IMG/VR virus record: IMGVR_UViG_3300037440_000905
Coordinates: 1 to 56,949 of that record
Source: a virus
Taxonomy: Duplodnaviria; Caudoviricetes
Strand: one strand, 5' to 3'
Length of the DNA: 56,949 nucleotides
Part shown: piece after piece, positions 200-56,949 of the stretch
Layout of the letters: every line of letters starts with the position of its first letter
How positions within the stretch are numbered: position 1 is the first letter of the stretch
Program-made: the position numbers and the translations under genes
Notes under the pieces: model-generated
What the model saw: the letters and a program-made list of their open reading frames with translations, nothing else
Databases searched by the model: none
Told to the model about the DNA's origin: nothing

Positions 200-649
200 A
201 TGAATAAATCGAAATTCTCAATCATATTGGCCGCGGCTTTATGCCTCGGAGGAACAGGCTGCCAACTCTTGAGCGGAAACGGGCAAGATTCCGCGAGCTT
301 ACAAAGCGACGCCAGGCTCATCACCTATCTTGGAAGCGCCTTGTACTTGCAGAAAAATCCCGAGTATCGCGTTGCGTTTGAAACCACCAGGACGGCTTTG
401 GAAGTGGTGGCGAATGATGAAAACGCTTCTCCGGCAAGTCTGGCGGCCGCTCTGTCGAACCTTCCCATCAGTGAAGTGCGATCCGGGAACGGAGCCATTC
501 TATTCCATGGAGGATTGCTTTTGATCGAGCGGTTTGCCGGGGGCGGTCAAAACCAGATCGATCCAGAACAGATACAATCGGTTGCTTCAGGGATGAGGGA
601 TGGGTTTAACATGGCCCTCATTCAATCCCAACCAGCGCCGGGCAGTTAA
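200..649 (+). CDS. Lipoprotein, candidate outer-membrane spanin
   Basis: Signal peptide MNKSKFSIILAAALCLGGTG|C with lipobox Cys21; follows the holin and a TM/coiled-coil gene with ATGA overlaps. Confidence 0.6.
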   Translation: MNKSKFSIILAAALCLGGTGCQLLSGNGQDSASLQSDARLITYLGSALYLQKNPEYRVAFETTRTALEVVANDENASPASLAAALSNLPISEVRSGNGAILFHGGLLLIERFAGGGQNQIDPEQIQSVASGMRDGFNMALIQSQPAPGS

Positions 650-9021: not shown

Positions 9022-9024
9022 GCC

Positions 9025-38433: not shown

Positions 38434-38440
38434 AGGAAAA

Positions 38441-38728: not shown

Positions 38729-38747
38729 ATGGATCCCAACCAAAATT

Positions 38748-41142: not shown

Positions 41143-42092
41143 GATGGCTTTTGATCAGCTCAATCCATAATCCAGGTGATTCATTCGCCAGATTTGGCGT
41201 CGAAGATCTCATCCGGGAAATCGACCAGGAGGCTCTCTTCCATGTGCTCGACAAGGAAAACCCTGACGCATGGAATCCCGTGCCATTCGATCGAGCCGTT
41301 CTTTGCGGCATGCCGGCGCTGTGGAGCCACGAGAATCAGAGCAGTACTGAAATTTGGTGGTGGGAAAAGCTTTTCGACGGTTGGATCACGGAAAACCCAA
41401 AACGTTTCATCGCGATCGGAATCGGTGAAGTGGTTGGAAAAGACGGAATTCACGATCCCAAAGCTTGGCAGGACGCCGTTGAAGTTCTGGTGTCCAAAAG
41501 TTTTGCCATCACCAGCCGCCATGAACTCACTCTCCACGACCCAAGAATCATTCAAGGCATTTGCCCGTCGTTCTTCGTGAACAGTCCAACATTCGATCCC
41601 GAGAAGAAACCACGAAGCTACTGCAATTTGATGCGCCATGGAGCCCATGATCCTTTCATGAACCCAGAGGAATCTAGGGTCTGGGAAAAATCGGTAGTCC
41701 CGCTTGCAAAAAAGTTGATCGAAGACGGATACGGATTTGTCGCCCATGATGCCGATGAAGTGCGCTTTGCGGCGGAACTGGGCTTCACCGATATCCATAT
41801 TTTCTTTGATCACCGGGAATACCTCAAACTTTACAAACAGTGCGACCGCTTCGTCGGCAACAGAATCCATGGCGCCGCCATGGCTTACCTCTTTGGAGCG
41901 CAAGTCATGTGTGTCGCCTATGATTCCAGAATCTACCTTCTTAGGGCGGTTGGAGGAAAAGCCATTTATCCCAGTCAAATGGACTGGGATCTGTACGAAT
42001 TCGACACGTTACGAAATCTGAGTATCATCCATCTCGAACGTCAGAAGACCAAATCGTTGTTGAAAGCGTTCATGGATTACAATGACCACTGA
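41139..42092 (+). CDS. Polysaccharide pyruvyltransferase-like protein
   Basis: NPGD at the N-terminus, IGIG, SR...CPS, VGNRIHGAAMAYLFG, DSR. Confidence 0.7.
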   Translation: MRWLLISSIHNPGDSFARFGVEDLIREIDQEALFHVLDKENPDAWNPVPFDRAVLCGMPALWSHENQSSTEIWWWEKLFDGWITENPKRFIAIGIGEVVGKDGIHDPKAWQDAVEVLVSKSFAITSRHELTLHDPRIIQGICPSFFVNSPTFDPEKKPRSYCNLMRHGAHDPFMNPEESRVWEKSVVPLAKKLIEDGYGFVAHDADEVRFAAELGFTDIHIFFDHREYLKLYKQCDRFVGNRIHGAAMAYLFGAQVMCVAYDSRIYLLRAVGGKAIYPSQMDWDLYEFDTLRNLSIIHLERQKTKSLLKAFMDYNDH

Positions 42093-42097
42093 ACCGA

Positions 42098-42113
42098 TGT
42101 TCCACGTGGAACA
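42098..42113. promoter_or_regulatory. parS centromere-like site (ParB-binding palindrome)
   Basis: TGTTCCACGTGGAACA matches the chromosomal parS consensus; embedded in a 28-bp perfect palindrome (42092-42119) followed by Ts, so it may also act as a terminator. Confidence 0.75.
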
Positions 42114-42174
42114 TCGGTTTTTCGCGTCAGGAAGTTCTTGAGCTTGGAGGCTTTGGGGCGTAAACCATTATCCT

Positions 42175-44496: not shown

Positions 44497-44728
44497 AAAC
44501 ATCGTCCAATCCGTCGTGAGATTCGTGATGCAACCCCAAATGCAGGGGACTTTGGACTTGGCTATTCTGGAAATGGCCCATCAACTCTCTAAGTCCAGGG
44601 AGCCGGCCGATTCTTTGCACTGGAAACAAGCCGGCGCTTTGGAGTTCTGCCAGATCCTTTTGAATTTGGGCAACCTGCCTGAAATTCCCAAACGCCAACC
44701 CCCAACCCAGTTAAACCACAATGCCTGA
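44465..44728 (+). CDS. Small head-module protein
   Basis: 87-aa ORF between portal and scaffold, overlapping both. Confidence 0.55.
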   Translation: MSPKERLHLDKNIVQSVVRFVMQPQMQGTLDLAILEMAHQLSKSREPADSLHWKQAGALEFCQILLNLGNLPEIPKRQPPTQLNHNA

Positions 44729-46037
44729 ACCTACGATCGCCCCAGCGCCGGTTTCCACACCGCCCCAAACTCCTTCTCCGTCCGCTCCACCGCCAAAGCC
44801 CAGCGGCAGCGCGTTGCCTCCGAGCAGTGGGGAAATCCATTTTGGACAGTTGAGCGCCGAGCCAGAGGCGCCCAAACCCACTTCGCGCAGAGCCAAAATG
44901 TTCGAGGATCTTCAGAAGGTGGCCAATAAGTCCAATCCCCAACCCAAGCCCGAACCCAAACCCAAACCTGAGCCCGCCGAACCGCCGGAGCCGCAAGCGC
45001 CCCCTCCCGAGGGGGCATCGGATGATGACATTGACGATTTGGCGGACCTGAAAACTTCCAAGGAAACGCCTGAAGAGAAGGGCAAGAAACCAAGTCCGTG
45101 GAAGATCGCCGAGGAGTACAAGAAAAAGTCTGCTCAGTTGGAGAAGGAACTGGCTGAGGCACGCGCCAATTCCACGGCCAAAAAGGAATACGAGGACTTG
45201 CAGAAGCAGTTCAAAGAAATGAGTGAGCGTACTGCCCAAATGGAGGAGGAACTGCGTTACGTCGATTACCAGACGAGCGATGAGTTCAAAAAGCAGTACA
45301 AAGAGCCATATGAAGCGGCTTGGAAGCAAGCCATGGACGAGTTGGGCCAATTGACTGTCGAGGACGCCGGAACAACGCGCTACATGAACGCGGATGATTT
45401 ACTTCAATTGGTCAGACTCCCTCTACAGAAGGCCAAGGAAGTTGCCAAGGCTCAATTTGGCGATCTTGCGGAAGATGTCATGTCCCATCGCAAGGAGATC
45501 AAACGCTTGTTTGACGTGCAATTGAAAGTGTTGGAGGAGGCAAAAACCGTGGGTGCCGAACGCCAAAAACAACTCGTCATGGAGCATCAGGCCAAGCAGA
45601 AGGAATTGAGCGATCTTGTGGCAAAAAACTGGAATGAAGCGAACGAGGCCGTCGCCCAGGACGAGCGTTACGGGAAGTATTTTAGCGAGGATCCACAGGA
45701 CAAGGAAGCCAGTGAGCGTTTGCGCAAAGGCTTTGCCCTGGTCGACAAGGTATGGGCACAAAATCCCATGGACCCAAAGCATTCCCCCGAAGAGCGCGCG
45801 AGTATTGTCAGAAGTCACGCGCTTTTGCGCAATCGGGCCGCGGCTTTCGGACGGTTGGTTGTAACCAATCAAACCTTGGAAAAGCGCGTCGCGCAGTTGA
45901 CCGAGGAATTGGAAGCCTTTAAGGCAAGTGAACCAACGCGCACCGGCAGCGAATCCACTTCCGGACAGCCTCAAGGCAGGGTGCCATGGAGGCAAAGGAT
46001 GGAAGCCGACTTGGCGAAACTTGCCAGTGCCCGGTAG
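44721..46037 (+). CDS. Capsid scaffolding protein
   Basis: Pro-rich N-terminus and Glu/Lys coiled coils, immediately upstream of the capsid gene. Confidence 0.7.
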   Translation: MPEPTIAPAPVSTPPQTPSPSAPPPKPSGSALPPSSGEIHFGQLSAEPEAPKPTSRRAKMFEDLQKVANKSNPQPKPEPKPKPEPAEPPEPQAPPPEGASDDDIDDLADLKTSKETPEEKGKKPSPWKIAEEYKKKSAQLEKELAEARANSTAKKEYEDLQKQFKEMSERTAQMEEELRYVDYQTSDEFKKQYKEPYEAAWKQAMDELGQLTVEDAGTTRYMNADDLLQLVRLPLQKAKEVAKAQFGDLAEDVMSHRKEIKRLFDVQLKVLEEAKTVGAERQKQLVMEHQAKQKELSDLVAKNWNEANEAVAQDERYGKYFSEDPQDKEASERLRKGFALVDKVWAQNPMDPKHSPEERASIVRSHALLRNRAAAFGRLVVTNQTLEKRVAQLTEELEAFKASEPTRTGSESTSGQPQGRVPWRQRMEADLAKLASAR

Positions 46038-46046
46038 AAAAGGCCA

Positions 46047-46075
46047 TTGACACGATTTTAATCCGAGTGTAGGAC
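46047..46075 (+). promoter_or_regulatory. Putative sigma70-type promoter for the major capsid gene
   Basis: TTGACA-17 bp-TAGGAC in the intergenic gap. Confidence 0.5.
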
Positions 46076-46270
46076 TTCCATCAGTTGTCCTTCAAAAAAA
46101 ATGAGCCGATTGGAAGGGCAGCGGTCGGCAGGCTGATCCGGAGCCAACAATCTGGTGCCCGCTTCTCAAGGCGTAGCTTCTAAAACGCCCCACACGCAAT
46201 AGAACCGCACGATGCACGATTGCATCTGCAAACTGCGTGAAAGATTTAAACCTTTACGTTTTAGAAACTT

Positions 46271-47656
46271 ATGGCTTGTCCAGACAGCAGCATCATCCAA
46301 GCGTGCGACTATCCCCAGTTTTTCATCGATCAAACCCCCAAGTTCGACGAGAAGATTTTGGAGGACATCAAGCCCACCGACGGTTGGCTGTATAACGTCA
46401 GCACGGGAACCACTCCGATGGGTACGTCCGTCGAAATTACCCAAGACCGTATGCGATCGGTTCACCCGAACACCACCAAGCAGTGGCGCCGGGTAGTAGC
46501 CAACGGCGTGGGTTGCACGGGTAATCCTTGTGATCCTCCCGAAAGCAAAATCGGGTGGGGAGCCGACCGGCTGACCTACTATGCCGAGGAACAGACCTGG
46601 GCCACGCCCTTGATCTGTTACAACCAGGCGATGCACATCACGCACGCGATGCAGGACATCGATCATTTGATCAGCAAGATTTTGAAGCCTGCGACTACGA
46701 TTATTTCGAGTGCTTTCCTGCGCAGACGCGCTCTTCAATGGGCCAAGTATCACACGACTGCCAATGCTTCTATGGAAGATTTTACCTTCCAATGGACGGC
46801 TCCAGCGGCGTTCCCGGACGAGGACATCTACTTCGACTGTTCGGTGGATCCTTCCAACGTGTATTTGTTGGTGCCGCAGATGTTGCAGCGCAATTTCTCG
46901 CGCGCGATGTTGGAAGGTTACGCCGGCGAGAATCCATTCAAAGAAACGTTGCCGTTCATCGAACTGGTTTCCGATCTGGACACGGTCCGAAACTTGGAAC
47001 GCCTGGGAACCCGGCAGGGCACGGGAGGCGGTTCATCTCCTTCCGTGATTGGTAATTGGCGTTTCTCCGAATGGGGCGCGGCCAGTGAGTATTGGCGCTA
47101 TGGGTTTTCTGGCCAGGTTGGTAATTACCTGGTTCGATCCGACGAGATGGGATTGCGTTTCAACTTCGTCACCGACCTGGGCGCGGGCGCGGCTCCCAAC
47201 CGTTACCGTTACCAAGTCTTGCAGCCATTTACAAACGTGCCTACAAGCGGCGCGGGCGGCGCGGTCGGTGAAGGTTCAGAGGTCAATGTGGATTTCCAGA
47301 ACGCCCAGTTCACCCTGACCTATCAGATGCACAAGAAAGGCATGGAACTGTTGGTTCCAGACGCGACTCCGCTCAATCCGGAAATGCCTTACGGCCATAA
47401 GGACTTCGGTGGAACCTGGCAATTCCAGATGGACAACTTGGGCGCCGACGCCTCGGGCCAGGTGATTGCCAATCCGTGGCGCAACAAGGGTCGTTTCGCG
47501 GCCTGGTTCAAGTATTACATCCGCCCGCTCCACACGGAGTTCATGCGGGTTTACTTCCATAAACGCGAACAGGAATGCATCCCCGAGATCGATACCTGCT
47601 CGCCTGATCCTGGTTATCCGAGCCAGAATTACTCTTCGGATCCGCCGACTTGCTAA
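46271..47656 (+). CDS. Major capsid protein
   Basis: 461 aa after the scaffold, with its own promoter and downstream hairpin; Cys-rich termini. Confidence 0.75.
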   Translation: MACPDSSIIQACDYPQFFIDQTPKFDEKILEDIKPTDGWLYNVSTGTTPMGTSVEITQDRMRSVHPNTTKQWRRVVANGVGCTGNPCDPPESKIGWGADRLTYYAEEQTWATPLICYNQAMHITHAMQDIDHLISKILKPATTIISSAFLRRRALQWAKYHTTANASMEDFTFQWTAPAAFPDEDIYFDCSVDPSNVYLLVPQMLQRNFSRAMLEGYAGENPFKETLPFIELVSDLDTVRNLERLGTRQGTGGGSSPSVIGNWRFSEWGAASEYWRYGFSGQVGNYLVRSDEMGLRFNFVTDLGAGAAPNRYRYQVLQPFTNVPTSGAGGAVGEGSEVNVDFQNAQFTLTYQMHKKGMELLVPDATPLNPEMPYGHKDFGGTWQFQMDNLGADASGQVIANPWRNKGRFAAWFKYYIRPLHTEFMRVYFHKREQECIPEIDTCSPDPGYPSQNYSSDPPTC

Positions 47657-47671
47657 TCTAGGCCGGGCGCA

Positions 47672-47722
47672 CCCCCGTCAACCGTTTCATGAAGGGTTGG
47701 GCGGTTGGCGGGGGCTATTTTC
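47672..47722 (+). terminator. Hairpin/terminator after the capsid gene
   Basis: cccccgtcaaccg...cggttggcggggg followed by ctatttt. Confidence 0.5.
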
Positions 47723-47749
47723 AACTCCAATCCCTTCAAACGTTTGGCC

Positions 47750-47989
47750 ATGGCAATTATTGACGAGGACATGTACGGCGACGCAAAGATGGAGATGGAG
47801 GAGGGCGAGCAACCGGCCAAGCAAACTCCCACGGCGCTGTTGCCAAAGTCGATCGCCATGGGAAAAGAAGTTGCCGTCGGCGATTCGATCCTCGTGACCG
47901 TGACGCGGATTTACGACGACGAGTTCGAAGTCGAATACGCCAAGAAAAAATCCAACGCGCCACCCATCGCAATGGAAGACCTGGAATAA
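47750..47989 (+). CDS. Small acidic protein
   Basis: TALLPKS...VGDSILVTVTRIYDDEFEVEY. Confidence 0.55.
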   Translation: MAIIDEDMYGDAKMEMEEGEQPAKQTPTALLPKSIAMGKEVAVGDSILVTVTRIYDDEFEVEYAKKKSNAPPIAMEDLE

Positions 47990-47992
47990 GCC

Positions 47993-48400
47993 ATGCCTGC
48001 CACCCTTCCCGCCGAACTTTTCTCCCAAGCCAACTGCTTTCGCTGCTACGGAGATGCCGACACGACCCAACTCTTACGCCTGGCCATTTTGGCCCAAACC
48101 TTAACCACCCTTGACGCCATGGCCGCCACCGATCCACAAAGCCTTTTGGAGTACGCCAAATGTTTTCGCTGCTACAGCAATGGAAATACTGCTGATCTGA
48201 TGGAATTGGCGTTGCTCGACCAAATCAGCCAGACCGTGACCGGAGGAGGCGGAGGCGGAAGCGGACTGGCCGGGGCCGGAGATCCGGAAGGATCCGTGAC
48301 TGCCGCCGCAGGAACCACCTACGTCAACACGACGGACGAATCGTTTTGGGTGAAGAAAACCGGAGCCGGCGACACCGGCTGGATTGAATTGATCGCATGA
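47993..48400 (+). CDS. Minor virion protein with tandem CFRCY repeats and a fibre-type C-terminal domain
   Basis: Two CFRCY repeats, Gly linker, GDPEGSVTAAAGTTYVN...WVKKTGAGDTGW. Confidence 0.6.
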   Translation: MPATLPAELFSQANCFRCYGDADTTQLLRLAILAQTLTTLDAMAATDPQSLLEYAKCFRCYSNGNTADLMELALLDQISQTVTGGGGGGSGLAGAGDPEGSVTAAAGTTYVNTTDESFWVKKTGAGDTGWIELIA

Positions 48401-49872
48401 AAAACTCCAAATTGCTACTGACCGCGGCCTTCTGTTTCGTCGCAACGTTCCTGATCGCCCAACCCATCCAAAAGAGCGGATACACACTCACCCCAGCCGG
48501 CCAGACCATCAACGCGGCAGGCGGAAGCATAACCAATCTGAATGTTCTCAGAATCACCGGAACCGCCGGCAATGTGGCTCTGACCAATGCCAACAGCACG
48601 AACTGGATCACCGACGTTTTGAACATCGGAACCCCGGACGGCGCCGACATGATTCCGATCGTCGACGTATCCACTGGTTCACGGAAGTACGCATTGGCCA
48701 CTGAGTTCTTAGCCGGGGCCGGTGACGTCACGACCGCTCAGTTAAACAATGCATCGAACGTTCTGCGAACTGACATTACCAACCTGCAGGGTGCTACCAA
48801 CGGTCAAAATTCGAGGCTTAATGGGCACGACACGGACATTGCCAATTTGCAGGGAGCCACCAACGGGCTCGTCGCGGACATTCAATCGACGTCCAACAAG
48901 GTGGTTGTGGCGGCCGGAACCGGCGGAATTACCGTCACATCGAGTGGCGCAGGTGGAGTTCAGACATTCACCGTGAATGACGATGACGCCGGAGGTTCAA
49001 CGAACAACGTCGCCACGGGAGTGCTTTTTAATACGACTTCAAATCTTCTGACTTTACTTGGCGGCCTGGTCATCCCTCCACGCCCGGGAACGGCCACCAT
49101 CGATGTCACCACGAATTTGACATTTTATTTCACCGTTGGATCGGATACCAACATCACGATTGCCGGAGCTTCGTCCAATGTCCCGCCGGTCGAGTTGGTT
49201 TTTACGCAGGATTCAGTGGGAGCACATACGATCACAATCGGAGGTGTCGGAGAGATTCATGCGGCGGACACAAACGCTCTCGGTGAAACGATGCTTTCAG
49301 TTTATGGGTGGGCCGGCCGGACCAATGCAGTTCCGATTTCAACGCCCGCCGTCCTCCTTACGAGCTACCTCGCCAAGGGCGGCGTCCCGGCTTCGAGCAC
49401 CACCAACTTCGGCGTCATCAACCTGGCTGAGGGGGAGGTTCTCATGGGGACCAATCACGTCAATCATCCTTTCGGGGTGGCGGCGGTGAACATTCCTGCG
49501 GGTGGCGGATCCGCCGGTCCAACAACCAACGCGCCGCCCTACACGGTTCCAATTATCGGCACGAATTTCATCCTGGATTGGCTGGCTCTTGGCGCGACCA
49601 ATGACGTTATCTTGACACTCTCTGCGCATTCCGGACTCCTCAACACTAACATTATTCCAGGCAAGTTCATCCGCATGGCAATCGAGCAGCCAAACGAGGG
49701 CTTCACCTACCTTGTACCGAACACGAATTACTTCGGACCAAACTTCAGGCCGACATCGGTCCAAACCGGGATTACGCAAAGCACGAATGGAAATTATGTG
49801 GATTTCATTGCTCTTTATGGGTTCCGAACCAACGCCGTTCTGAGCGGCCAAAACTGGGGAAGTGAGCCATGA
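48397..49872 (+). CDS. Fibre-like protein with a Sec-type signal peptide
   Basis: MKNSKLLLTAAFCFVATFLIA|Q; repeated DIxNLQGATNG coiled coil; LVFTQDSVGAHTIT fibre-type motif; Thr/Asn-rich. Confidence 0.6.
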   Translation: MKNSKLLLTAAFCFVATFLIAQPIQKSGYTLTPAGQTINAAGGSITNLNVLRITGTAGNVALTNANSTNWITDVLNIGTPDGADMIPIVDVSTGSRKYALATEFLAGAGDVTTAQLNNASNVLRTDITNLQGATNGQNSRLNGHDTDIANLQGATNGLVADIQSTSNKVVVAAGTGGITVTSSGAGGVQTFTVNDDDAGGSTNNVATGVLFNTTSNLLTLLGGLVIPPRPGTATIDVTTNLTFYFTVGSDTNITIAGASSNVPPVELVFTQDSVGAHTITIGGVGEIHAADTNALGETMLSVYGWAGRTNAVPISTPAVLLTSYLAKGGVPASSTTNFGVINLAEGEVLMGTNHVNHPFGVAAVNIPAGGGSAGPTTNAPPYTVPIIGTNFILDWLALGATNDVILTLSAHSGLLNTNIIPGKFIRMAIEQPNEGFTYLVPNTNYFGPNFRPTSVQTGITQSTNGNYVDFIALYGFRTNAVLSGQNWGSEP

Positions 49873-50069
49873 GCAATAGATCTAAAATCCTGATTGGTTG
49901 GGTTGCTCTTTCGGCGGCCGTGCTGATTGGCGTATGGATTGGAGCGGCTGGACCGAAGCTAATCCGGATCGATTATTTCCCTCATCCGAAGATCGGTAAC
50001 AACGATGCTGATGTTACGATTCGACTGCCTTACGTTGTGGAATCGACCAACCAGGTAACTGCGAAATGA
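49869..50069 (+). CDS. Small single-pass membrane protein
   Basis: ILIGWVALSAAVLIGVWIGAAG; ATGA overlaps on both sides. Confidence 0.55.
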   Translation: MSNRSKILIGWVALSAAVLIGVWIGAAGPKLIRIDYFPHPKIGNNDADVTIRLPYVVESTNQVTAK

Positions 50070-53000
50070 AGACTCTAATTTTCCTATCCGAATGCGTTGG
50101 ATTGTCAATTCTTGCACTTGCATCATTACCAATCCTTCCCGTCTTGTGTCTTCTGGTTTTGTTGTTTTCATCGCGCAGATCGGAAGCCGTCATGACCTTC
50201 CGAGGCATCGGCCAGACCAATACAACGGCCAACGTTGACAGTTACACTCTGGCTACAAGCAACGCCCCAATTGCAAACGCACTTTGCATTGTGGCTGTTA
50301 TCAGTAGCAAAGCTTCTGCTCCTAATACACCTACATTGGCGGGCTACGGAATGACGTGGTATATGATCGCTGAAACAAATTTTAACACTCTTGGTTCTCC
50401 AAAATCCAAACTCACGTTGTTTCGATCCATGACCAATGACAATCCAACGTCGGACGCTCTGGTTGCTTCCTTTGGAGCCAATCAGACAGGCTGCAGCATG
50501 CGAGCCGTGCAATTTTCTGGTGTGGATACATCTGGAACTTTAGGTAGCAATGCCATTGTTCAATTCGCTGTGAACGGTGCAGATGCGACCGCTAATGCGA
50601 ATGTGACTCTTGCAGCTTTGGGTGGCGGTGGATTCAATTCTGTCATCGCATTTTTGGGGAAGGATACCGTGGCGTTTTCAGGCACACCTGAAGACGGTTG
50701 GACCGAAGACTGGGACGCAGGTGCCAATCCTCCATCGAACGCTGGATACTGCATGTATAATTTTTTCACGACTGATAACACAGTCATCGTCACTAACACT
50801 GCCGCTGACTGGGCAGCGATGGCGGTTGAGATCAAGGGTGATCCAAATTCTGATGCATCTGGAACCAACGTGATCGGAGCATGGATTGATAGTGATGGAT
50901 GGACTTTGAAAGTTGTTATCGGCGGTGACACTACAACATCGATTGGAACCAATCTTCAATATTATCCAGGATTTTTAACCAGCGCACCAACGAACTGGAA
51001 TGCTTTGACCTCGACTCAAACTTGCGCTTTGACGGTTACGAGTTCGGGTTGGAAAGATGGAAGTCAAAGAACAATTGAGCGAACAATTTACCCGACAAAA
51101 ATCCGCAGATGGCCGTGGCCATTAGGGAATACCAATCGTATTCATATCACTGAAGCCACCGGAACAAACGTCATAGTTGATATTGCCCTGAATGATTATA
51201 TTTATGCAGGTGAGACTATTTCAATGACTGCGATTGCGGGATGGATTGCGAACACAAATACTTTGATCGATGTCGCAGCAGTTACTAGTTTGACGGTAAC
51301 TAATGACTCAGTAACGACGTTCGCTGATTCCTCTGAACCAACGATGAATTGGGCTCATCCTGGACAGCAACGATGGACCAATTCAACGGAATACGTCTAC
51401 TTAAAGGGCGGCCATTGGAGCGGAATCGACCGAGTTAAAGTTTATGCGATGGATGAAAGCTCGAATACTCAGGAAGTTTGGGCATCACATATTCGAGCAA
51501 AGCCTGGCTTTGGCCCAGCTAGAGGTTATTGGGTAGCGGCAATTTCAACATCGACCTTCACGAATTTTGCCCGCATCCGCTGTGATTATGTGGTGTATCC
51601 AATGATTGGGACCAATGTTTTCGACACGCGCTGGGATAGGTGGACGGGGCCGACTCCGTTGCCATCCAGCCAAACCAATTTTTTGGATCGTTTTAATTCA
51701 TTCACGAACTTTGGGATAGTTGCATTGGGAGGAGGCGCAACGCCTGTGATTACCAATGGACCACCCGAGAACGTTGATCCAGTCCATTATTTCGGATCAT
51801 TTAATGCGCTTTGGAACGCTCTTGCTGCAACTAACTTTCACCGCTACGGAATTGCGGAATCGATAGGTGTCGCACTTGGAAGAAATGGTGTGACTAATTG
51901 GAGTGGTGGTTCATTGAGCGTCTCAAATACAGCTCGCTCTTGGTCGAGATTAAAAAACTACCCAGGCGACGTTCTAACTTTGACAAACCGCACTGGCAGT
52001 CAAGATATCTCTGATTGTGTGAAGTTCGAGGGAGATACTGCGAATGGTGGAGGACTAGTGCTTCAGTTTGGGACAGGTGTTGGAAGTCCAATTTCAGGAG
52101 TTGCTAGGCTGTGGCTTGACAACATCACTGTGGATTCACCGAGCACGCAGATATTTGCAACGTGTAGTCATATTAGCATGACTGACGTTACCGTCTCAAG
52201 ATGTGGTCAGTCGATTACTACCATCAGCGCACAGAACACCTCGTTCGCTATTGGTAGGGATGTTGACGTGAGCGGGGTTAACGGGAATACTTGGTTTAGG
52301 ACGGGGATTGGAATTACGCGAAGGGGTGCTGGGAACACATCGTTCAAGATTATCGATACACAAGCCAATCACGGTGCGCCTTTTAGCGCACATACAATTT
52401 TGACCGACTCGGAATTTCTTCAACTTGGCGGAAATACTATTCTTCAATTCGGGAATACTGCCGCTGTGGATCCCGCGACATATGATGTTCTTCATGGATT
52501 TTGGTCCGAAAATGTCATCATCGAGAGCACTAATAATTATGTGTCCATGTCGCTGTGGCCAATGTCGCATGTTACCAACGTTGTGATTCGTAACTGGACG
52601 ATTCAAGGGGCTCGCAACCAGATGATTTACAATTCTGATACGAATAAATTTAGGATTACTACAAGATTTTATAATAATGTTTTCCCTGTGCCGGGATGGG
52701 CTGGAGATCTTTCGCCCCAACAGAATCCTTGGTTAACCAACAGTGCAAACATTCTGTATCAGGTAGGTTGCTCCGGGAATATTTACCATTATCCAGATGG
52801 TTCACCTGCTCATAACTGGCCAGATTTTAACGGTGTATTCAACATCATTCCAAATGTTAGCGGAACTAAATTCCCAACCAATTTTGTAAGATTCCAAAAT
52901 AATCAGGGTTATCTAGGAGCCTTTACCACTGGACTTGGGGATTATCGGTTGCTGAATAACAATTACTTATTTGGAATTTCTAGAGAAGTTGGCGCATTAC

Positions 53001-53110
53001 AAGTTCATCAACCGGATTTGGGTTATGATATTGAAGGTAAACTACGCAGTGTCATTGATCCGCCCGGAGCACATGTAAGCGGCAATGTTCGGAAAGGGGG
53101 ATTGTTTTGA
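50066..53110 (+). CDS. Large exported beta-rich protein with a beta-helix-like C-terminal half
   Basis: Long hydrophobic N-terminus ending SEA|V; Thr/Asn-rich; C-terminal GDYRL...YDIEGKLR...PPGA motif. Confidence 0.6.
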   Translation: MKTLIFLSECVGLSILALASLPILPVLCLLVLLFSSRRSEAVMTFRGIGQTNTTANVDSYTLATSNAPIANALCIVAVISSKASAPNTPTLAGYGMTWYMIAETNFNTLGSPKSKLTLFRSMTNDNPTSDALVASFGANQTGCSMRAVQFSGVDTSGTLGSNAIVQFAVNGADATANANVTLAALGGGGFNSVIAFLGKDTVAFSGTPEDGWTEDWDAGANPPSNAGYCMYNFFTTDNTVIVTNTAADWAAMAVEIKGDPNSDASGTNVIGAWIDSDGWTLKVVIGGDTTTSIGTNLQYYPGFLTSAPTNWNALTSTQTCALTVTSSGWKDGSQRTIERTIYPTKIRRWPWPLGNTNRIHITEATGTNVIVDIALNDYIYAGETISMTAIAGWIANTNTLIDVAAVTSLTVTNDSVTTFADSSEPTMNWAHPGQQRWTNSTEYVYLKGGHWSGIDRVKVYAMDESSNTQEVWASHIRAKPGFGPARGYWVAAISTSTFTNFARIRCDYVVYPMIGTNVFDTRWDRWTGPTPLPSSQTNFLDRFNSFTNFGIVALGGGATPVITNGPPENVDPVHYFGSFNALWNALAATNFHRYGIAESIGVALGRNGVTNWSGGSLSVSNTARSWSRLKNYPGDVLTLTNRTGSQDISDCVKFEGDTANGGGLVLQFGTGVGSPISGVARLWLDNITVDSPSTQIFATCSHISMTDVTVSRCGQSITTISAQNTSFAIGRDVDVSGVNGNTWFRTGIGITRRGAGNTSFKIIDTQANHGAPFSAHTILTDSEFLQLGGNTILQFGNTAAVDPATYDVLHGFWSENVIIESTNNYVSMSLWPMSHVTNVVIRNWTIQGARNQMIYNSDTNKFRITTRFYNNVFPVPGWAGDLSPQQNPWLTNSANILYQVGCSGNIYHYPDGSPAHNWPDFNGVFNIIPNVSGTKFPTNFVRFQNNQGYLGAFTTGLGDYRLLNNNYLFGISREVGALQVHQPDLGYDIEGKLRSVIDPPGAHVSGNVRKGGLF

Positions 53111-56100
53111 GGCTTACGTTTATAATTTTTTTACTGTTTCGGCAGCTCGCTTCTTCGGCTACTTATTACTGCGCGACGAATGGAGTTGATACCGATCCAG
53201 GAAGTGAAGCTCAACCTTTCCTGACTCTTCAACAAGGATTGAACACTGCTCTCGCAGGAGACACGATTTTACTTGGCCCTGGTCAATTCGATACCAATGG
53301 TGTGCTTAGCGTGCGGAATGGATCAAATGGATTGATCATTACGATCGATGGTCAAAGCCAAGCGCAAGTAGGATCGTTTTTCATCCAGCATCCATATCAC
53401 ATGGTGATCAACACTATCGTGAAGGGAGGGAATGACGGATGGATGATATCAATGAGGCGCAACGCTGATTTTTGTGTCATCAGCAACAATGTAATTGACG
53501 CGGAAAATGCGCAGGCAAGAGGGTTTATCGAATCTGAAGCTCCACTTGCTCAACCGTTCGGTGATGCTGCGAGTAATAATTTGATCGCAAGCAATCGGAT
53601 GACGAACGCAAATTCGGAGGGAGGAGGAATTGGAATATACGGGGACCACAACTTGATTGTAGGGAATTACCTATCGGATGGAGATAACGTTGATTGGTTG
53701 CGCATTTTCGGCAAAACCAACATCGTTCGCGGGAATACTTTTTCGAACGTATTTGAGGGGACTGGTATTGGTCATGCCGATTTTGTTCAGATGTCCGGGC
53801 CTGATTTTGGATCTCAGTATAATCTCATCGAGCAAAATAAGATTTTGAATTTCGGAGTCCCCGGAGGATCGCCACAACTGTGTTTTTTTTCGGCTGCAGA
53901 TTTACCGGAGATAAGTGATATAACTTTCCGGAATAATCTGTTCGTGGACGTGTCAGCGAAAGGTACGATGGGCGCTAGAAATATTCATTGGTATAATAAC
54001 ACGTTTATTCGTTGCAGTGCTGGGGTTGTTCTGAATTTTGTCACGGCGACAAATGAAACCTATACGAATTTTTGGGTGACATCAGGACACGGCGGAAGAT
54101 CCGTAAACAATGTTTTCCTGAATTGCGAATACTTCATCGGCAACGATAGTCTGGGTTGGTATTCTTTCAACGAGGAACTGACTAACGTACTAGCTGACCA
54201 TAATTTTGTGGCGCAGTCGAATTACATTCCCGTGGAAGCCGGCACTGCTCCAGTCGGAGATCCTGGGTATCAATACTGGCAATTTTATGAGACGAACGGA
54301 ATTAATGGCGGGAATCCATACTTGACTTGGAGTGAAGGTCAGAATTTTAGTCCGACATTATTGAGTCCGCTTGTCGGGGCTGGCATGGATTTGAGCGCAT
54401 ATTACAATGATGACTTGGAAGGGAAAACGAGAGATGCAAACTGGGACATGGGAGCCTACGAATATACTGAAACTCCACCGATACAGCTGGCTTGCATAAA
54501 CGATCCTAAATCGTCGAGGGGCTATCCAATTGCATCTACTAACTGGATAGGAATTTTCTGGCCGACAAATGCATATCGGTTGGTGACCATGGTCTCTCGT
54601 AGGGAATACACAAACAATCCAATCCATTGGTCGACGTGGAGCAACATCTACTCAAACGCGACCGATCAAACTATGGAATCAGGATTCATTGATACCAATA
54701 TTTCATCTGGAATCCATTACGAGTATTGGCTCTATCAACTCATGACTAATTGGGTTTGTGACGGAGTTACAAATGGGCCGTCATTGACATTCCAATATAT
54801 CAGCACGGGAACGCAAGTCCCGCTAAAGGATGACATGGGAAATCTTGTCCTTTTAGTTGATAGTTCCGTGGCTGGTCCATTGGCTTCTGAGATTGCGATT
54901 CTGACCAATAGTTTCGTTGGCGACGGCTACCAGATTTTCCGGCATGACGTAACTCCGGTCGAGGTGACAAATGCAAGTTGGGCGTCGGCGGTTTCGGCAA
55001 CCAAAACTCTGGTTCAGAATGATTATCTCACAAACACAAATGCGGATTGGACTCTGGTAATCCTTGGGCATGTTCCGATTCCTTACGGTGGATTAACTAG
55101 TCCAGGTGCCCATCTCGATAATTTCGGGGCTCACCCAGCAGATTGGTATTATGCGGACAGGAGTGAGGTTGGGTGGAATGACACGGACGCAAACGACAGC
55201 ACCGCTGATGATCCTCCGCAATGGAACGTTCCAGGTGATGGAAAGTATGACACGAATTTTATCCCTAACATTCCGCAGATGAGACTTGGCAGGATCGACA
55301 TCAATCAGTTTCCGTCCACTGGTAAATCAACCGCGCAATTGCTAAGCCAATATCTCACGCGAAACAACGAGTGGAGGAACAAGGAGTTTACGGTCCCAAA
55401 AATCGGGACAGTCAATTTCTCAAACTCAGCCCCAGCCGAAGCGCACGGATTGCTATCATCGTTTTTCGGCAACACAACAAACACTGTTTTGACGAATTGG
55501 ATGAACCATTTGACGAACGTAGGCAATGCTACGCTATGGGCCTATTCGTTTGGCAGTGGGCAATATGATCATGACAACACACTGGGTTATTCCACTGGAC
55601 TAGTAGCGCATGGATTCTACTCTCCGTTTATTAGGACTTATGGCTCATATTATGGGGACTGGGATAGCGGTATGCGATCAAACCTTTTTTTATTGGCTCC
55701 ACTTGCAGCAGACGGTTACGGGCTGACCGTCGAGTATGGTGAAAATAAAATAACGATGGACCATTCCGCGATGGGCGAACCAATCGGTCAACAGATGTTT
55801 TCCATGGCAGCTTCGTTTTTCCATCCAATCGATTATCGATACCGTCAACCGAACGACCTCAATGTGGTTTCAGAAAGACCCAAAACTTATGTCTCGTTAC
55901 AAGGAGATCCGACACTTAGAGCCTACGTTGTGTCTCCTCCAACTGACGCTCTAGTAACACCAACAGGCTCGGACAACGTAATCACATGGACGGCATCCTC
56001 GGATGATTACGTCGTCGGCTATCATGTTTATCGTTCACCGGCCGGCCAGAGAAATTCATTCACGAAATTAACTTCGATCCCAACGACAAGCCCCTACACG

Positions 56101-56295
56101 GATGAGGATGAATCTGGCGGGAGCTATGACTATATGGTCCGCGCCGTGAAGCTGGAACAGACGGCAAATAGGAGCTTCTATCTTCCTAGCCAGGGTGCGT
56201 TCACGGAAGCAGGAGAACCAGCGACTCCAAGTGGCAACCCAAGGAAAGGCTCGAAGCTCGGCGGCGGCAGAGGCGTGGGGAGGTTTGGAAGATGA
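53107..56295 (+). CDS. Exported multidomain protein: right-handed beta-helix, FN3-like and peptidase C25-like domains
   Basis: Signal peptide ...LASSA|TYYCATNGVDTDPGSEAQPFLT; Asn ladders; DLEGKTR..WDMGAYEY; ILGHVPIPY...ADWYYAD...LGRID...GDPTL; C-terminal FN3 (VVGYHVYRS...YDYMVRAV). Confidence 0.7.
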   Translation: MRLTFIIFLLFRQLASSATYYCATNGVDTDPGSEAQPFLTLQQGLNTALAGDTILLGPGQFDTNGVLSVRNGSNGLIITIDGQSQAQVGSFFIQHPYHMVINTIVKGGNDGWMISMRRNADFCVISNNVIDAENAQARGFIESEAPLAQPFGDAASNNLIASNRMTNANSEGGGIGIYGDHNLIVGNYLSDGDNVDWLRIFGKTNIVRGNTFSNVFEGTGIGHADFVQMSGPDFGSQYNLIEQNKILNFGVPGGSPQLCFFSAADLPEISDITFRNNLFVDVSAKGTMGARNIHWYNNTFIRCSAGVVLNFVTATNETYTNFWVTSGHGGRSVNNVFLNCEYFIGNDSLGWYSFNEELTNVLADHNFVAQSNYIPVEAGTAPVGDPGYQYWQFYETNGINGGNPYLTWSEGQNFSPTLLSPLVGAGMDLSAYYNDDLEGKTRDANWDMGAYEYTETPPIQLACINDPKSSRGYPIASTNWIGIFWPTNAYRLVTMVSRREYTNNPIHWSTWSNIYSNATDQTMESGFIDTNISSGIHYEYWLYQLMTNWVCDGVTNGPSLTFQYISTGTQVPLKDDMGNLVLLVDSSVAGPLASEIAILTNSFVGDGYQIFRHDVTPVEVTNASWASAVSATKTLVQNDYLTNTNADWTLVILGHVPIPYGGLTSPGAHLDNFGAHPADWYYADRSEVGWNDTDANDSTADDPPQWNVPGDGKYDTNFIPNIPQMRLGRIDINQFPSTGKSTAQLLSQYLTRNNEWRNKEFTVPKIGTVNFSNSAPAEAHGLLSSFFGNTTNTVLTNWMNHLTNVGNATLWAYSFGSGQYDHDNTLGYSTGLVAHGFYSPFIRTYGSYYGDWDSGMRSNLFLLAPLAADGYGLTVEYGENKITMDHSAMGEPIGQQMFSMAASFFHPIDYRYRQPNDLNVVSERPKTYVSLQGDPTLRAYVVSPPTDALVTPTGSDNVITWTASSDDYVVGYHVYRSPAGQRNSFTKLTSIPTTSPYTDEDESGGSYDYMVRAVKLEQTANRSFYLPSQGAFTEAGEPATPSGNPRKGSKLGGGRGVGRFGR

Positions 56296-56714
56296 CCAAT
56301 TCCTTTCCAGCCCAAGCCAGCGCGTTGCTCGATAAGGTGGACCTTGTTTTTTCCTGGATGTGGACCAGTCCCATCGAGATTGTGGGCATTGCCGGCATAT
56401 TGATCTTCGGTTACGTTCTAAAGAGCATCCCAAAATTCCCAAATCAATACATCCCACTGGCCACGTTCGCCATGGCGATATTCTACTACGGATTCATCCT
56501 GTCTCCATCCAAGGCTCCGCAGGTTCAGATGGATCCGAGGCATTGGATGGGCGGTGTGGTGGCTCCGATCGCATGGGCTATTGCATGGATCTCCCATGGC
56601 CTGTTGAGCAAAAAGCTTGGCTTGGACAGACTACTTTTCAAGAAAGACTACAGGGGTAACACCCGCCTCAAGAGAAAACCGAAACCACAAATGCCAGATT
56701 CGGCGAGTGAATGA
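56292..56714 (+). CDS. Holin
   Basis: Three hydrophobic segments, GYVLKSIPKFPNQYIPL holin-type motif and a basic C-terminal tail. Confidence 0.7.
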   Translation: MTNSFPAQASALLDKVDLVFSWMWTSPIEIVGIAGILIFGYVLKSIPKFPNQYIPLATFAMAIFYYGFILSPSKAPQVQMDPRHWMGGVVAPIAWAIAWISHGLLSKKLGLDRLLFKKDYRGNTRLKRKPKPQMPDSASE

Positions 56715-56949
56715 AAATGTCTGACGAAACGCGGGATTTTTTGGCGAAGGGATTTCCAAACTGGTTTCAGAACCTGTTGATGAGTTTTTTGTGCTTCATT
56801 CTGACGATGCTCTATTTCGATTTCCGAGGGCTTCAGCAGACTGTTCACATCAAAGAGGTTGAATTTGTCGAGGTCAGAAGCAAAACAGAGCAGAACGCCA
56901 AGGACATTCAATACATTCAAGCTACGCAAAGATCTTTGGCCGATGGGCT
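56711..56949 (+). CDS. Junction-spanning TM + coiled-coil protein (56711-56822 joined to 1-203; 104 aa), candidate inner-membrane spanin
   Basis: MKMSDETRDFLAKGFPNWFQNLLMSFLCFILTMLYFDFRGLQQ...LEERRYQNQTGK*; ATGA overlaps with both the holin stop and the lipoprotein start. Confidence 0.6.
   Translation, partial: MKMSDETRDFLAKGFPNWFQNLLMSFLCFILTMLYFDFRGLQQTVHIKEVEFVEVRSKTEQNAKDIQYIQATQRSLADG
56823..56949 (+). repeat. Terminal direct repeat, copy 2
   Basis: Identical to bases 1-127. Confidence 0.95.

What the first reader, a model, noticed from the sequence alone, without database searches (positions are those of the whole stretch)
48397..56295. Tail-fibre locus made of proteins carrying export signals
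Seen in sequence: four translationally coupled genes between capsid and holin, the usual position of fibre/spike genes, all start with signal-peptide or TM segments (MKNSKLLLTAAFCFVATFLIA; ILIGWVALSAAVLIGVWIG; ...LLVLLFSSRRSEA; MRLTFIIFLLFRQLASSA). Their bodies have fibre-like coiled coils, beta-helix and FN3 features. Established: tailed-phage virion proteins normally assemble in the cytoplasm without signal peptides. Inference: either the appendages are exported and mature in the periplasm and join virions at or after lysis, or the phage decorates the host surface (lysogenic conversion, receptor masking) from its late operon.
Basis: partly seen in the sequence, partly recalled or inferred. 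Interest (0 to 1): 0.8.

Follow-up and report, generated by a model that had tools for sequence, protein, structure and literature searches.

The report
Phage fibre and spike genes with export signals
An uncultured sediment phage carries a swappable block of late genes, one with the fold of a phage tail-fibre tip and two resembling sugar-cutting enzymes, that start with bacterial secretion signals, so they probably work or mature outside the cytoplasm where phage particles are built.

Summary
The window is a complete ~56.8-kb phage genome with a 127-bp terminal repeat. Four genes at 48397-56295 are chained by 4-base overlaps and all begin with hydrophobic segments.

Two leaders are canonical and conserved:
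- g491: 30 of 39 relatives have a leader, and 17 have Gln right after the predicted cleavage site.
- g1062: 6 of 6 fetched relatives have one.

The other two are weaker. g66 looks like a membrane anchor. The g1014 leader is atypical, and its start (M1 or M43) is open.

The g491 end domain folds like phage fibre and spike tips and models as a trimer. g1014 and g1062 look like Pel9A/DUF1565-type beta-helix proteins.

In the one close relative the block is replaced by other leader-bearing genes, and only the g491 leader is kept.

Export is likely for g491 and g1062. Whether the products join virions or act on the host envelope is not resolved. I favour envelope action (0.4).

This scan has noted leader-bearing phage fibres on other genomes. 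My literature searches found no description of them for tailed phages.

The parts
47993..48400 (+). g135: leaderless 135-aa protein with two CFRCY motifs, a Gly-rich linker and a short C-terminal motif shared with the ends of longer phage proteins. It is the first gene of the overlap chain and is conserved in the relative.
   Evidence: phrog_21909 E 8e-07, phrog_16355 and phrog_32123 E about 2.5e-4, all matching residues about 49-133. One search shows the 136-aa homologue in L001. One search finds no hydrophobic N-terminus.
48397..48459 (+). g491 signal peptide, residues 1-21, with predicted cleavage A21|Q22.
   Evidence: Sequence. An in-frame stop lies 3 codons upstream and the next Met is residue 85. 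Against L001, codons 1-22 show 6 synonymous-only and 3 conservative changes. DNA homology to the relative ends at 48468.
48397..49872 (+). g491: fibre-like protein made of a leader, a short conserved mature N-terminus, a variable Thr/Asn/Gly-rich body with two NLQGATNG repeats, and a conserved C-terminal domain.
49429..49869 (+). g491 C-terminal domain (residues 345-491; folded core about 374-491): a beta-sandwich of phage fibre/spike tip type, modelled as a trimer.
   Evidence: AF2 model pLDDT 79.3. BFVD gave 150 hits at E<=0.001. The top six VIA chains have Z 6.2-8.6; five are named phage-particle appendages. Trimer score 0.90 against best control 0.06. It is the only copy in the window and the relative.
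49869..50069 (+). g66: 66-aa protein with one N-terminal transmembrane segment (about residues 7-28) and a 37-residue tail. GC3 is low (0.49).
   Evidence: No family hit.
50066..53110 (+). g1014: optional 42-residue hydrophobic extension (alternative start M43 at 50192), an N-terminal domain (about 48-260) shared with leaderless proteins, a middle region, and a C-terminal right-handed beta-helix (about 400-1006). GC3 is 0.42.
53107..56295 (+). g1062: leader (residues 1-18), Pel9A/DUF1565-type beta-helix (about 19-455), then a conserved roughly 560-residue C-terminal half (about 480-1040). That half is shared with secreted bacterial proteins, some carrying type IX secretion sorting domains. GC3 is 0.47.
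48468..56274 (.). The swapped cassette: 7.8 kb here against 2.07 kb of unrelated leader-bearing genes in the relative IMGVR_UViG_3300037743_000357.
   Evidence: blastn; ORFs of the relative.
56292..56714 (+). g140: holin-like membrane protein, next in the overlap chain.
   Evidence: phrog_1129 holin E 1.8e-4. Pfam Phage_holin_5_2 E 0.0029, below the cut-off.
56711..56949 (+). 104-aa transmembrane plus coiled-coil-like gene (i-spanin-like). It runs across the terminal repeat and ends at window 203.
   Evidence: Circular read-through; homologue in L001.
200..649 (+). 149-aa lipoprotein-like gene that ends the chain. The relative has an unrelated 174-aa leader-bearing protein in its place.

Best explanation
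The block 48468-56274 is a horizontally exchangeable late-gene cassette whose products are sent to the cell envelope by the host Sec pathway rather than staying in the cytoplasm where heads and tails are built.

The parts:
- g491 is a trimeric fibre-type binding protein. After signal peptidase I cleavage it starts with Gln.
- g1062, and possibly g1014, are polysaccharide-lyase or hydrolase-like beta-helix proteins.
- g66 is a small inner-membrane partner.

Proposed mechanism: the genes are made from the same late transcript as the holin and the spanin-like genes. They reach the periplasm before lysis and bind or cut envelope glycans of the infected cell. This would remove or mask receptors and ease release, protecting progeny from debris and the cell from superinfection.

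Shown here: the leaders, their conservation, the folds, and the cassette swap. Inferred: export itself, the late timing, the glycan targets, and the non-virion role.
For: Real, translated leaders:
- g491 has no alternative start, and its leader codons show mostly synonymous change against L001 (6 synonymous-only, 3 conservative, in codons 1-22).
- 30 of 39 relatives from two independent searches have a hydrophobic leader. The crude caller flagged 31; I discount one 75-aa fragment. Four more are fragments that do not begin with Met.
- 17 of 39 have small-x-small followed by Gln. [quoted passage not shown] It is hard to explain unless cleavage happens.
- g1062: all 6 fetched relatives (of 9 non-self hits) have a leader. 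In 5 of them it abuts the conserved beta-helix cap. The next Met, at residue 99 and chosen by the gene caller, would cut off that conserved cap.

Secreted ancestry of g1062:
- All 57 loci in bacterial genomes match only the C-terminal half (residues 451 onward).
- At least 12 of the 17 that I translated begin with leaders, by eye.
- 2 of 5 scanned relatives carry Por_Secre_tail.
- The A1 profile hits the N-terminal cap of xylosidase 3vst (E 5e-8), rhamnogalacturonan lyase 5olq (E 9.6e-6) and a mannuronate lyase (E 2.9e-4).

Context:
- The four genes form one contiguous, overlap-coupled run with the holin-like, spanin-like and lipoprotein genes. The large proteins at 2516-16071 have no leaders.
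- In two unrelated viral contigs the g1062-type proteins lie among auxiliary genes, not recognisable structural ones. L003 has phosphoheptose isomerase, a lipoprotein, HNH and RNA ligase nearby. L004 has a GtrB-like O-antigen conversion gene and HNH nearby, plus a coupled leader-bearing DUF1565 beta-helix gene.
- g66, g1014 and g1062 have GC3 of 0.42-0.49 against 0.61-0.70 for core genes, which points to recent import.
- The relative's replacement cassette also encodes leader-bearing proteins.
Against: - The g491 tip domain has the fold of virion fibres and spikes and is the only such copy in the genome, so it is not a decoy copy of a separate virion fibre.
- A wholesale swap with a conserved N-terminal 33 residues is exactly the pattern of receptor-binding proteins.
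- Subgroups of relatives share a conserved mature N-terminus right after the cleavage site, as docking segments do.
- No other receptor-binding protein was recognised in the genome. Only p627 has Ig-like He_PIG domains.
- The g491 family has no member from NCBI genomes among the hits listed.
- The g1014 relatives P0014 and P0016 lack leaders.
- A Sec leader only reaches the periplasm. No outer-membrane sorting domain was found in any of the four proteins.
- No signal-peptide predictor, expression data or proteomics was available.
Confidence: 0.4

Rival explanations
1. The proteins are the phage's true fibre and tailspikes. They are exported, trimmed by signal peptidase I and folded in the periplasm, and they attach to finished particles only when the holin breaches the inner membrane or after lysis.
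For: - Fibre-tip fold, trimer model and sole copy in the genome.
- RBP-like cassette swap with a conserved leader plus about 11 mature residues.
- Conserved mature N-termini within subgroups of relatives.
- Beta-helix proteins of about 1000 aa look like depolymerase spikes.
- Position at the end of the head operon, directly before the lysis genes.
- No other clear receptor-binding protein.
- Leads only: other agents of this scan report the same pattern in phages where the leader-bearing proteins are the only fibre candidates.
Against: - No tailed phage is known to assemble this way (my knowledge), and I found none in seven literature searches.
- Homologues of g1062 in L003 and L004 sit among auxiliary genes.
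- Six of the 39 relatives are only leader, linker and tip domain (152-183 aa), too short to be a fibre shaft.
- Later checks of similar claims in this scan put such a reading at about 10 in 100 (unchecked by me).
Confidence: 0.2
2. They are ordinary cytoplasmically assembled virion appendages. The hydrophobic N-termini are bypassed (g1014 starting at M43), retained as buried docking helices, or are relics of secreted ancestors with no present export role.
For: - M43 of g1014 has the better Shine-Dalgarno match and was chosen by the gene caller.
- The homologues P0014 and P0016 begin there without a leader.
- g1062 descends from secreted bacterial proteins and could carry a relic leader.
- A published note reads signal-peptide predictions on phage capsid proteins as non-export cases (passage of PMC10367356).
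Against: - g491 and g1062 have no usable downstream start.
- The leader is under purifying selection between the two phages.
- Leaders of unrelated sequence recur in 30 of 39 relatives, 17 with the cleavage-linked Gln. A relic would decay.
- T is enriched at codon position 2 in the first 42 codons of g1014 (52% against 36% and 26%), and the ATGA overlap argues that this stretch is translated too.
Confidence: 0.15
3. They are lysogenic-conversion genes (morons), expressed from the prophage state, that change the host surface for the bacterium's benefit.
For: - Foreign GC3 of g66 to g1062.
- Exported proteins next to fibre or lysis genes have precedents: lambda lom and bor (recalled) and T5 llp (PMC9586334, search listing only).
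- First-stage notes on this genome suggest a plasmid-prophage lifestyle, from a parS site and a c4-like RNA (not tested by me).
Against: - All junctions are 4-base overlaps inside a late operon.
- There is no excess of promoter-like sites (11 found against 11.6 expected) or terminator-like sites (9 against 12.0) in 46000-56949, though the scan covers sigma-70-type promoters only.
- No integrase was seen in the ORFs I scanned.
Confidence: 0.1

Closest known systems
Phage tail-fibre, tailspike and capsid-spike distal beta-sandwich domains. Examples: BFVD entries named 'Tail fiber protein' and 'Putative phage tail fibre C-terminal domain'; Pseudomonas phage Pa223 capsid spike 9ny6; Acinetobacter phage Solidus tailspike 24qj; CBA120 TSP4 7rej.
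   Same: The fold of g491 residues about 374-491 matches: BFVD best E 4.5e-8 with 150 hits at E<=0.001, and VIA Z 6.2-8.6. The domain sits at the C-terminus, models as a trimer and occurs in a mosaic family.
   Different: Those proteins are known as cytoplasmically assembled virion parts (my knowledge). g491 and 30 of 39 relatives start with a secretion signal. No Pfam or PHROG model matches g491 at E<=0.1. PDB Foldseek E-values are only 0.02-0.08.
Bdellovibrio bacteriovorus MAT fibres (Caulton et al. 2024, PMC10769870; passages read).
   Same: Trimeric, phage-tail-fibre-like, mosaic proteins that carry a signal peptide followed by a conserved N-terminal segment and work on the cell surface.
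   Different: They are encoded by a bacterium, have a conserved domain of about 130 aa after the leader, and many have S74 chaperone-protease ends. g491 is phage-encoded, has about 11 conserved residues after the leader, and has a different end domain.
Signal-peptide proteins obeying the Bacteroidetes Q-rule in Porphyromonas gingivalis phages (Matrishin et al. 2023, PMC10367356; passages read).
   Same: Phage genes with type I leaders that expose Gln. The authors read them as use of the host secretion system to alter the outer membrane.
   Different: There they are five genes of unknown function. No fibre, spike or beta-helix identity and no cassette structure is described in the passages I saw.
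Secreted Pel9A/DUF1565 right-handed beta-helix carbohydrate-active proteins (PL9 rhamnogalacturonan lyase 5olq, GH120 xylosidase 3vst), and type IX secretion cargo with the g1062 C-terminal half.
   Same: A leader directly followed by the TYY..NG.D..PG cap. The C-terminal half is shared at 24-47% identity with 57 bacterial loci.
   Different: g1062 has no Por_Secre_tail or other sorting domain. It is phage-encoded and fuses the two halves, which are separate adjacent genes in L004 and reversed in P0006. Catalytic residues were not examined.
Exported phage proteins encoded beside receptor-binding or lysis genes: T5 Llp (PMC9586334, listing only), lambda Lom and Bor and phi80 Cor (recalled), and secreted or SAR endolysins (recalled).
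   Same: Leader-bearing products of tailed phages that act in the envelope. Llp and Cor block the phage's own receptor. The position next to fibre or lysis genes is shared.
   Different: Those are small lipoproteins, outer-membrane proteins or lysins. None has a fibre-tip fold or a 1000-aa beta-helix.
PblA/PblB of Streptococcus mitis phage SM1 (passage in PMC3055811).
   Same: Tail-fibre proteins that also end up on the bacterial surface and change its binding properties.
   Different: They are described there as tail fibres. That they lack a leader and reach the surface through phage lysis is my recollection of the cited primary paper, which I did not read.

Membership tests
Sec / signal peptidase I substrates | Positively charged n-region, a 7-15 residue hydrophobic core, and small residues at -3 and -1. 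| tested here: met
   Met by eye and by a crude script for g491 (MKNSK, 16-residue core, I-A|Q) and g1062 (MR, 9-residue core, S-S-A|T). Not met for g1014 (32-residue core, RR in the c-region) or g66 (22-residue core, no clear site).
Sec / signal peptidase I substrates | Call by a trained predictor (SignalP, DeepTMHMM). | not testable with these tools
Sec / signal peptidase I substrates | Leader conserved in relatives and under selection. | tested here: met
   g491: 30 of 39 relatives; 6 synonymous-only against 3 conservative changes in codons 1-22. g1062: 6 of 6 fetched. g1014: 2 of 4 fetched.
Bacteroidetes Q-rule substrates | Gln at +1 of the cleavage site. | tested here: met
   Met for g491 and 17 of 39 relatives, for L001's first cassette gene and for P0006. 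Not met for g1062 (Thr). A Bacteroidota host is not shown.
Phage tail-fibre / spike tip domain | Shared fold with known fibre or spike distal domains. | tested here: met
   (150 BFVD hits at E<=0.001). (six chains at Z>=5, of which five are named phage-particle appendages). The tool warns that Z 7-8 is common for models without a clear match.
Phage tail-fibre / spike tip domain | Match to a curated family model (for example PF26209). | tested here: not met
   No Pfam, PHROG or NCBIfam hit for g491 at E<=0.1. PF26209 appears only as an Atlas lead.
Phage tail-fibre / spike tip domain | Homotrimer. | tested here: met
   Model only. Score 0.90, best of 3 controls 0.06. The mark was reached by 20 of 30 solved pairs and 1 of 23 single chains in calibration. 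Runs agree in at least 89% of contacts, and partner pLDDT is at least 71. The pass may reflect likeness to solved fibre tips.
Phage tail-fibre / spike tip domain | Presence in the virion. | not testable with these tools
   Needs proteomics or cryo-EM.
Pel9A / DUF1565 right-handed beta-helix | N-terminal cap motif and helix repeats matching the family model. | tested here: inconclusive
   g1062: DUF1565 E 0.0018, 18.1 bits against a cut-off of 20.3. Relative P0002: Pel9A-like 25.2 bits, at the cut-off. A1 profile against 3vst: E 5e-8, cap region only. g1014: Atlas structure TM 0.68 normalised to the hit, a lead only.
Type IX secretion cargo | C-terminal sorting domain (Por_Secre_tail or the type B domain). 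| tested here: not met
   None in the four proteins. Present in the bacterial relatives L017 and L035.
Peptidase C25 (gingipain-like) | Family model match and a His/Cys dyad. | tested here: inconclusive
   Only L035 gives Peptidase_C25, at E 0.0028 and below the cut-off. The A1 profile finds no PDB relative for the C-terminal half at E<=0.01. The dyad was not examined.
Moron / lysogenic conversion gene | Own promoter and terminator, and foreign composition. | tested here: inconclusive
   Foreign GC3 for g66 to g1062. But the junctions are 4-base overlaps and there is no excess of sigma-70-like promoters or terminators. Other promoter types are not covered.

The most novel reading that the evidence does not exclude
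A branch of tailed-phage assembly runs through the periplasm. In this phage, the host-recognition fibre and perhaps the spikes would be exported by Sec, cleaved by signal peptidase I (with the new N-terminal Gln possibly cyclised) and folded as trimers outside the cytoplasm. They would dock by a short conserved mature N-terminus onto otherwise complete particles only when the holin opens the inner membrane. Going by the relatives' leaders, and by notes of this scan that I did not check, the same may hold for a wider set of uncultured phages.
Probability: 0.18. Interest if true: 0.9.

Novelty: new variant of a known kind. Interest (0 to 1): 0.6.

Why it matters
Textbook assembly of tailed phages is wholly cytoplasmic. 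A family of proteins with a genuine fibre-tip fold that systematically carries cleavable secretion signals means one of two things. Either some phages build part of their adsorption apparatus outside the cytoplasm, or phages have redeployed fibre and depolymerase modules as exported tools that bind or strip the surface of the infected cell. Either answer affects three things:
- how receptor-binding proteins are predicted from metagenomes;
- how host range is inferred;
- how such proteins should be expressed for study, with or without the leader.

The case can be tested directly with reporter fusions and N-terminal mass spectrometry.

Tried and rejected
**Structure and family searches that gave nothing**
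- Whole-protein AF2 of g491 with 6 sequences failed (pLDDT 34.2), so I folded the end domain alone.
- Pfam, PHROGs and NCBIfam gave nothing for g491, g66 and g1014.
- PDB phmmer gave nothing usable for the terminase-like, capsid-like, portal-like, p627 and p620 proteins. The virion module therefore remains unverified.
- Phage-collection tblastn with the capsid-like protein found no match.

**Relatives and genomic context**
- Scans with the capsid-like and portal-like proteins found only one viral contig.
- g1062 alone found none.
- The g491 family alignments found no confirmed locus in viral contigs. In metagenome contigs one scan found none and the other gave a single 1.4-kb fragment.
- So I could not see the genomic context of any g491 relative.
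- A search of 401 genomes of the phylum of locus L041, and of 5 named handles, with the capsid-like protein found nothing. This shows nothing about the host.

**Ideas rejected**
- Host O-glycosylation tagging: D[ST][AILVMT] is not enriched (0.20-0.39 per 100 residues in the four proteins against 0-0.87 elsewhere).
- N-x-S/T enrichment: 1.0-1.5 per 100 against 1.0 in p620 and p627. Thr-Asn pairs are enriched (20-25 against 0-3).
- An exported decoy copy of a separate virion fibre tip: the domain HMM finds only g491 in the window and the relative.
- The beta-helix proteins as the missing endolysin: the relative lacks them, and no lysin family turned up in the ORFs I scanned.

**Inconclusive or empty**
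- A link between the g491 tip domain and the end of the relative's 246-aa protein: hhalign E 0.017, probability 2.7%.
- Sequencing runs: one DNA holder (a sediment metagenome, possibly the source) and no RNA holder listed.

Full report
**What the window is.** The 56,949 bases are the whole record, and the first 127 bases repeat at the end. It is therefore a complete, circularly permuted or terminally redundant genome of about 56.8 kb. Replication and recombination genes give clear family hits: UvrD-type and SNF2-type helicases, SSB, RecU and an SMC-like ATPase. These names rest on order, size and composition only. The single close relative is a 55.4-kb IMG/VR contig; its putative capsid protein is 87% identical and its putative portal 84%. 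The only sequencing run holding the stretch is a sediment metagenome, possibly the source.

**The observation.**
- Four + strand genes lie at 48397-49872 (g491), 49869-50069 (g66), 50066-53110 (g1014) and 53107-56295 (g1062, TTG start). Each overlaps its neighbour by four bases.
- The same coupling links them upstream to g135 (47993-48400).
- Downstream the chain continues to a holin-like gene (phrog_1129, E 1.8e-4). Next comes a 104-aa transmembrane/coiled-coil-like gene that crosses the terminal repeat, and then a lipoprotein at 200-649.
- A simple hydrophobicity screen of 68 greedily chosen ORFs flags nine. g491, g66, g1014 and the holin-like gene are adjacent, and the lipoprotein follows. 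g1062 scores 1.99, just below the threshold of 2.2. None of the large proteins at 2516-16071, nor the portal-like or capsid-like proteins, is flagged.

**Are the starts right?**
- g491: an in-frame stop lies three codons before the ATG, and the next Met is residue 85. Against the relative, codons 1-22 carry six synonymous-only changes and three conservative replacements (S4K, L7F, I20V). The leader is translated and under selection.
- g1062: the TTG overlaps the g1014 stop (TTGA) and follows AAGGGGGA. Residues 18-63 match the N-terminal cap of DUF1565 and an NCBIfam surface-protein model. The gene caller's start at Met99 (964 aa) would remove residues that are invariant across the family.
- g1014: the picture is open.
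  - For M1: the ATG at 50066 overlaps the g66 stop. T is enriched at codon position 2 over the first 42 codons (52% against 36% and 26%), as expected for a translated membrane segment.
  - For M43: it has the better Shine-Dalgarno match (GGAAG) and was chosen by both the gene caller and the Atlas record. The relatives P0014 and P0016 begin, without any leader, at positions equivalent to residues 48 and about 34.

**Are they signal peptides?** No trained predictor was available.
- g491 and g1062 have the classical three-part layout, by eye.
- g66 looks like a signal anchor.
- The g1014 stretch is a 32-residue, proline-interrupted hydrophobic run followed by SSRRSEA, which is not a classical leader.

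Conservation is the stronger argument.
- Two independent searches gave 39 non-self relatives of g491. One was word-indexed over 5.8 billion sequences; the other was full HMMER over 1.84 billion representatives and returned only 35 hits in all.
- A crude script finds a hydrophobic leader in 31 of the 39. I discount one 75-aa fragment, leaving 30. Four of the rest are fragments that do not begin with Met, and four have no leader.
- The leaders are not alike in sequence, so they are not simply inherited letters.
- In 17 of the 39, small-x-small is followed by Gln. The abstract of PMC5837995 states that in Bacteroidetes most signal peptidase I substrates expose Gln. [quoted passage not shown]
- A feature that matters only after cleavage is good indirect evidence that cleavage occurs. 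It also hints at, but does not prove, Bacteroidota hosts for many members.
- g1062 family: all six fetched relatives (of nine non-self hits) have leaders.
- g1014 family: two of four fetched relatives have leaders.

**What the proteins are: g491.**
- The family is a mosaic. Relatives share the last 125 residues or so, or the NLxGATNGL repeats, or both, in proteins of 139 to 2038 residues.
- Six relatives are just leader, Gly-rich linker and end domain (152-183 aa).
- Folding the whole protein failed. The end domain with 25 sequences gave pLDDT 79.3, and 85-95 over the core.
- Foldseek against predicted viral structures returned 150 hits at E<=0.001. The named ones among the top 50 were tail fibre proteins, a 'phage tail fibre C-terminal domain' protein, a mycobacteriophage minor tail protein, and collagen-repeat and Mtd-N proteins.
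- Against solved structures Foldseek was weak (best E 0.022).
- An exhaustive aligner ranked six chains at Z 6.2-8.6, clear of the next at 4.8:
  - Pa223 capsid spike;
  - KP1 baseplate;
  - Solidus tailspike;
  - two CBA120 TSP4 entries;
  - a 'chaperone-substrate complex' that I recall to be a phage fibre with its chaperone.

  The tool cautions that Z 7-8 is common.
- A three-copy model scored 0.90 against 0.06 for the best of three controls. That mark was reached by 20 of 30 solved pairs and 1 of 23 single chains in calibration; runs agreed in at least 89% of contacts and partner pLDDT was at least 71. The pass may reflect likeness to solved fibre tips.
- The Atlas's nearest clusters are all viral (score 0.90-0.91, a lead only).
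- g491 is therefore a fibre-type trimeric protein.

**What the proteins are: g1062 and g1014.**
- The first half of g1062 is a Pel9A/DUF1565-type right-handed beta-helix.
  - The family profile matches the caps of a GH120 xylosidase (E 5e-8), a PL9 rhamnogalacturonan lyase (E 9.6e-6) and a mannuronate lyase.
  - Relatives hit the Pel9A-like, Beta_helix and choice-of-anchor Q models.
- The second half of g1062 (about residues 480-1040) is shared with 57 loci in bacterial genomes of many phyla.
  - At least 12 of the 17 that I translated begin with leaders, by eye.
  - Two of five scanned relatives end in type IX secretion sorting domains. One gives a sub-threshold Peptidase_C25 hit.
- The two halves occur in reverse order in P0006.
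- In the viral contig L004 the two halves are separate, coupled, leader-bearing genes. This argues that they work together.
- g1014 has a C-terminal beta-helix (Atlas structure TM 0.68 normalised to the hit). Its N-terminal domain resembles small viral and bacterial proteins.

**The cassette.**
- blastn against the relative shows homology from the portal-like gene up to 48468, which is codon 24 of g491. Homology resumes at 56274, 20 bases before the g1062 stop.
- Between these points the relative has 2.07 kb encoding three different proteins:
  - a 246-aa protein with the same leader and similar first mature residues (57% identity over 54 residues, E 2e-13);
  - a 304-aa protein with a transmembrane start;
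  - a 186-aa protein with a leader.
- The lipoprotein after the spanin-like gene is also replaced, by a 174-aa leader-bearing protein. The glycosyltransferase block at 38062-42128 is non-homologous too.
- g66, g1014 and g1062 have GC3 of 0.42-0.49 against 0.61-0.70 for core genes and 0.64 for g491. They are recent imports.

**Weighing the readings.** I take export of g491 and g1062 as likely, about 0.8.

For a virion role:
- the fibre-tip fold;
- the single copy in the genome;
- the RBP-like swap with a conserved N-terminus;
- conserved mature N-termini within subgroups of relatives;
- the position before the lysis genes;
- the lack of another recognised receptor-binding protein.

For an envelope role without virion incorporation:
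- the unbroken run with the lysis proteins;
- the secreted bacterial ancestry of g1062;
- the auxiliary-gene neighbourhoods of its homologues in two other viral contigs: phosphoheptose isomerase, a GtrB-like gene, HNH and RNA ligase;
- the mini-proteins of leader plus tip;
- the fact that no tailed phage is known to assemble parts in the periplasm.

No outer-membrane sorting signal was found, so a Sec-only route ends in the periplasm. I commit, at 0.4, to exported envelope-acting proteins that bind or cut the infected cell's glycans around lysis. The rivals are periplasm-matured virion parts at 0.2, bypassed or relic leaders at 0.15, and lysogenic conversion at 0.1.

**Literature.** Seven searches found no paper describing Sec leaders on tailed-phage fibres or spikes. 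The nearest items are:
- Matrishin et al. 2023 (PMC10367356, passages): Q-rule leaders on five unknown genes of Porphyromonas phages.
- Caulton et al. 2024 (PMC10769870, passages): leader-bearing fibre-like adhesins of Bdellovibrio.
- The T5 Llp paper (PMC9586334, listing only).
- A passage on PblA/PblB (PMC3055811).

Passages of PMC3338817, PMC3556154, PMC5723332 and PMC8143477 held nothing relevant.

**Earlier notes of this scan.** One search reports the same pattern on other phage genomes, with later checks pricing the periplasmic-assembly reading near 10 in 100. I did not test those notes.

Noticed in passing
window 38062-42128: The block upstream of the portal-like gene is also non-homologous between this phage and its close relative. 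It holds a GT9-like glycosyltransferase hit and a polysaccharide pyruvyl transferase hit. Two surface-related cassettes therefore vary together.
   Followed up: partly
window 176-647 against L001 15027-15551: The gene after the spanin-like gene is a 149-aa lipoprotein here. In the relative it is an unrelated 174-aa leader-bearing protein ending in Phe, which by eye looks like a small outer-membrane barrel.
   Followed up: no
L004 9809-15408: An unrelated viral contig carries the two halves of g1062 as adjacent coupled genes. One is the C-terminal-half homologue; the other is a 1047-aa DUF1565-type beta-helix. Both have Q-rule leaders and the same repeated C-terminal ...DG.IKYTG..NDRD.ILV motif.
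   Followed up: partly
window 47993-48400 (g135) and protein P0019: g135 has two CFRCY motifs (a possible four-Cys metal site) and a C-terminal motif. In P0019 that motif is fused directly in front of the g491-type tip domain.
   Followed up: no
proteins P0029, P0031, P0036, P0040, P0041, P0047: Six relatives of 152-183 aa consist only of a leader, a Gly-rich linker and the fibre-tip domain.
   Followed up: no
window 50066-50194: g1014 has two candidate starts, a coupled M1 and an M43 with a Shine-Dalgarno match. They would give a membrane-tethered form and a leaderless form of the same protein.
   Followed up: partly
window 646-2499 (-), 42175-47656: The terminase-like, portal-like, scaffold-like and capsid-like proteins match no Pfam, PHROG, phage-collection or PDB sequence. 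The lineage is very distant from described phages.
   Followed up: partly
window 48397-56295: Thr-Asn dipeptides are strongly enriched in g491, g1014 and g1062 (20-25 each, against 0-3 in other large proteins). N-x-S/T sequons are not.
   Followed up: yes
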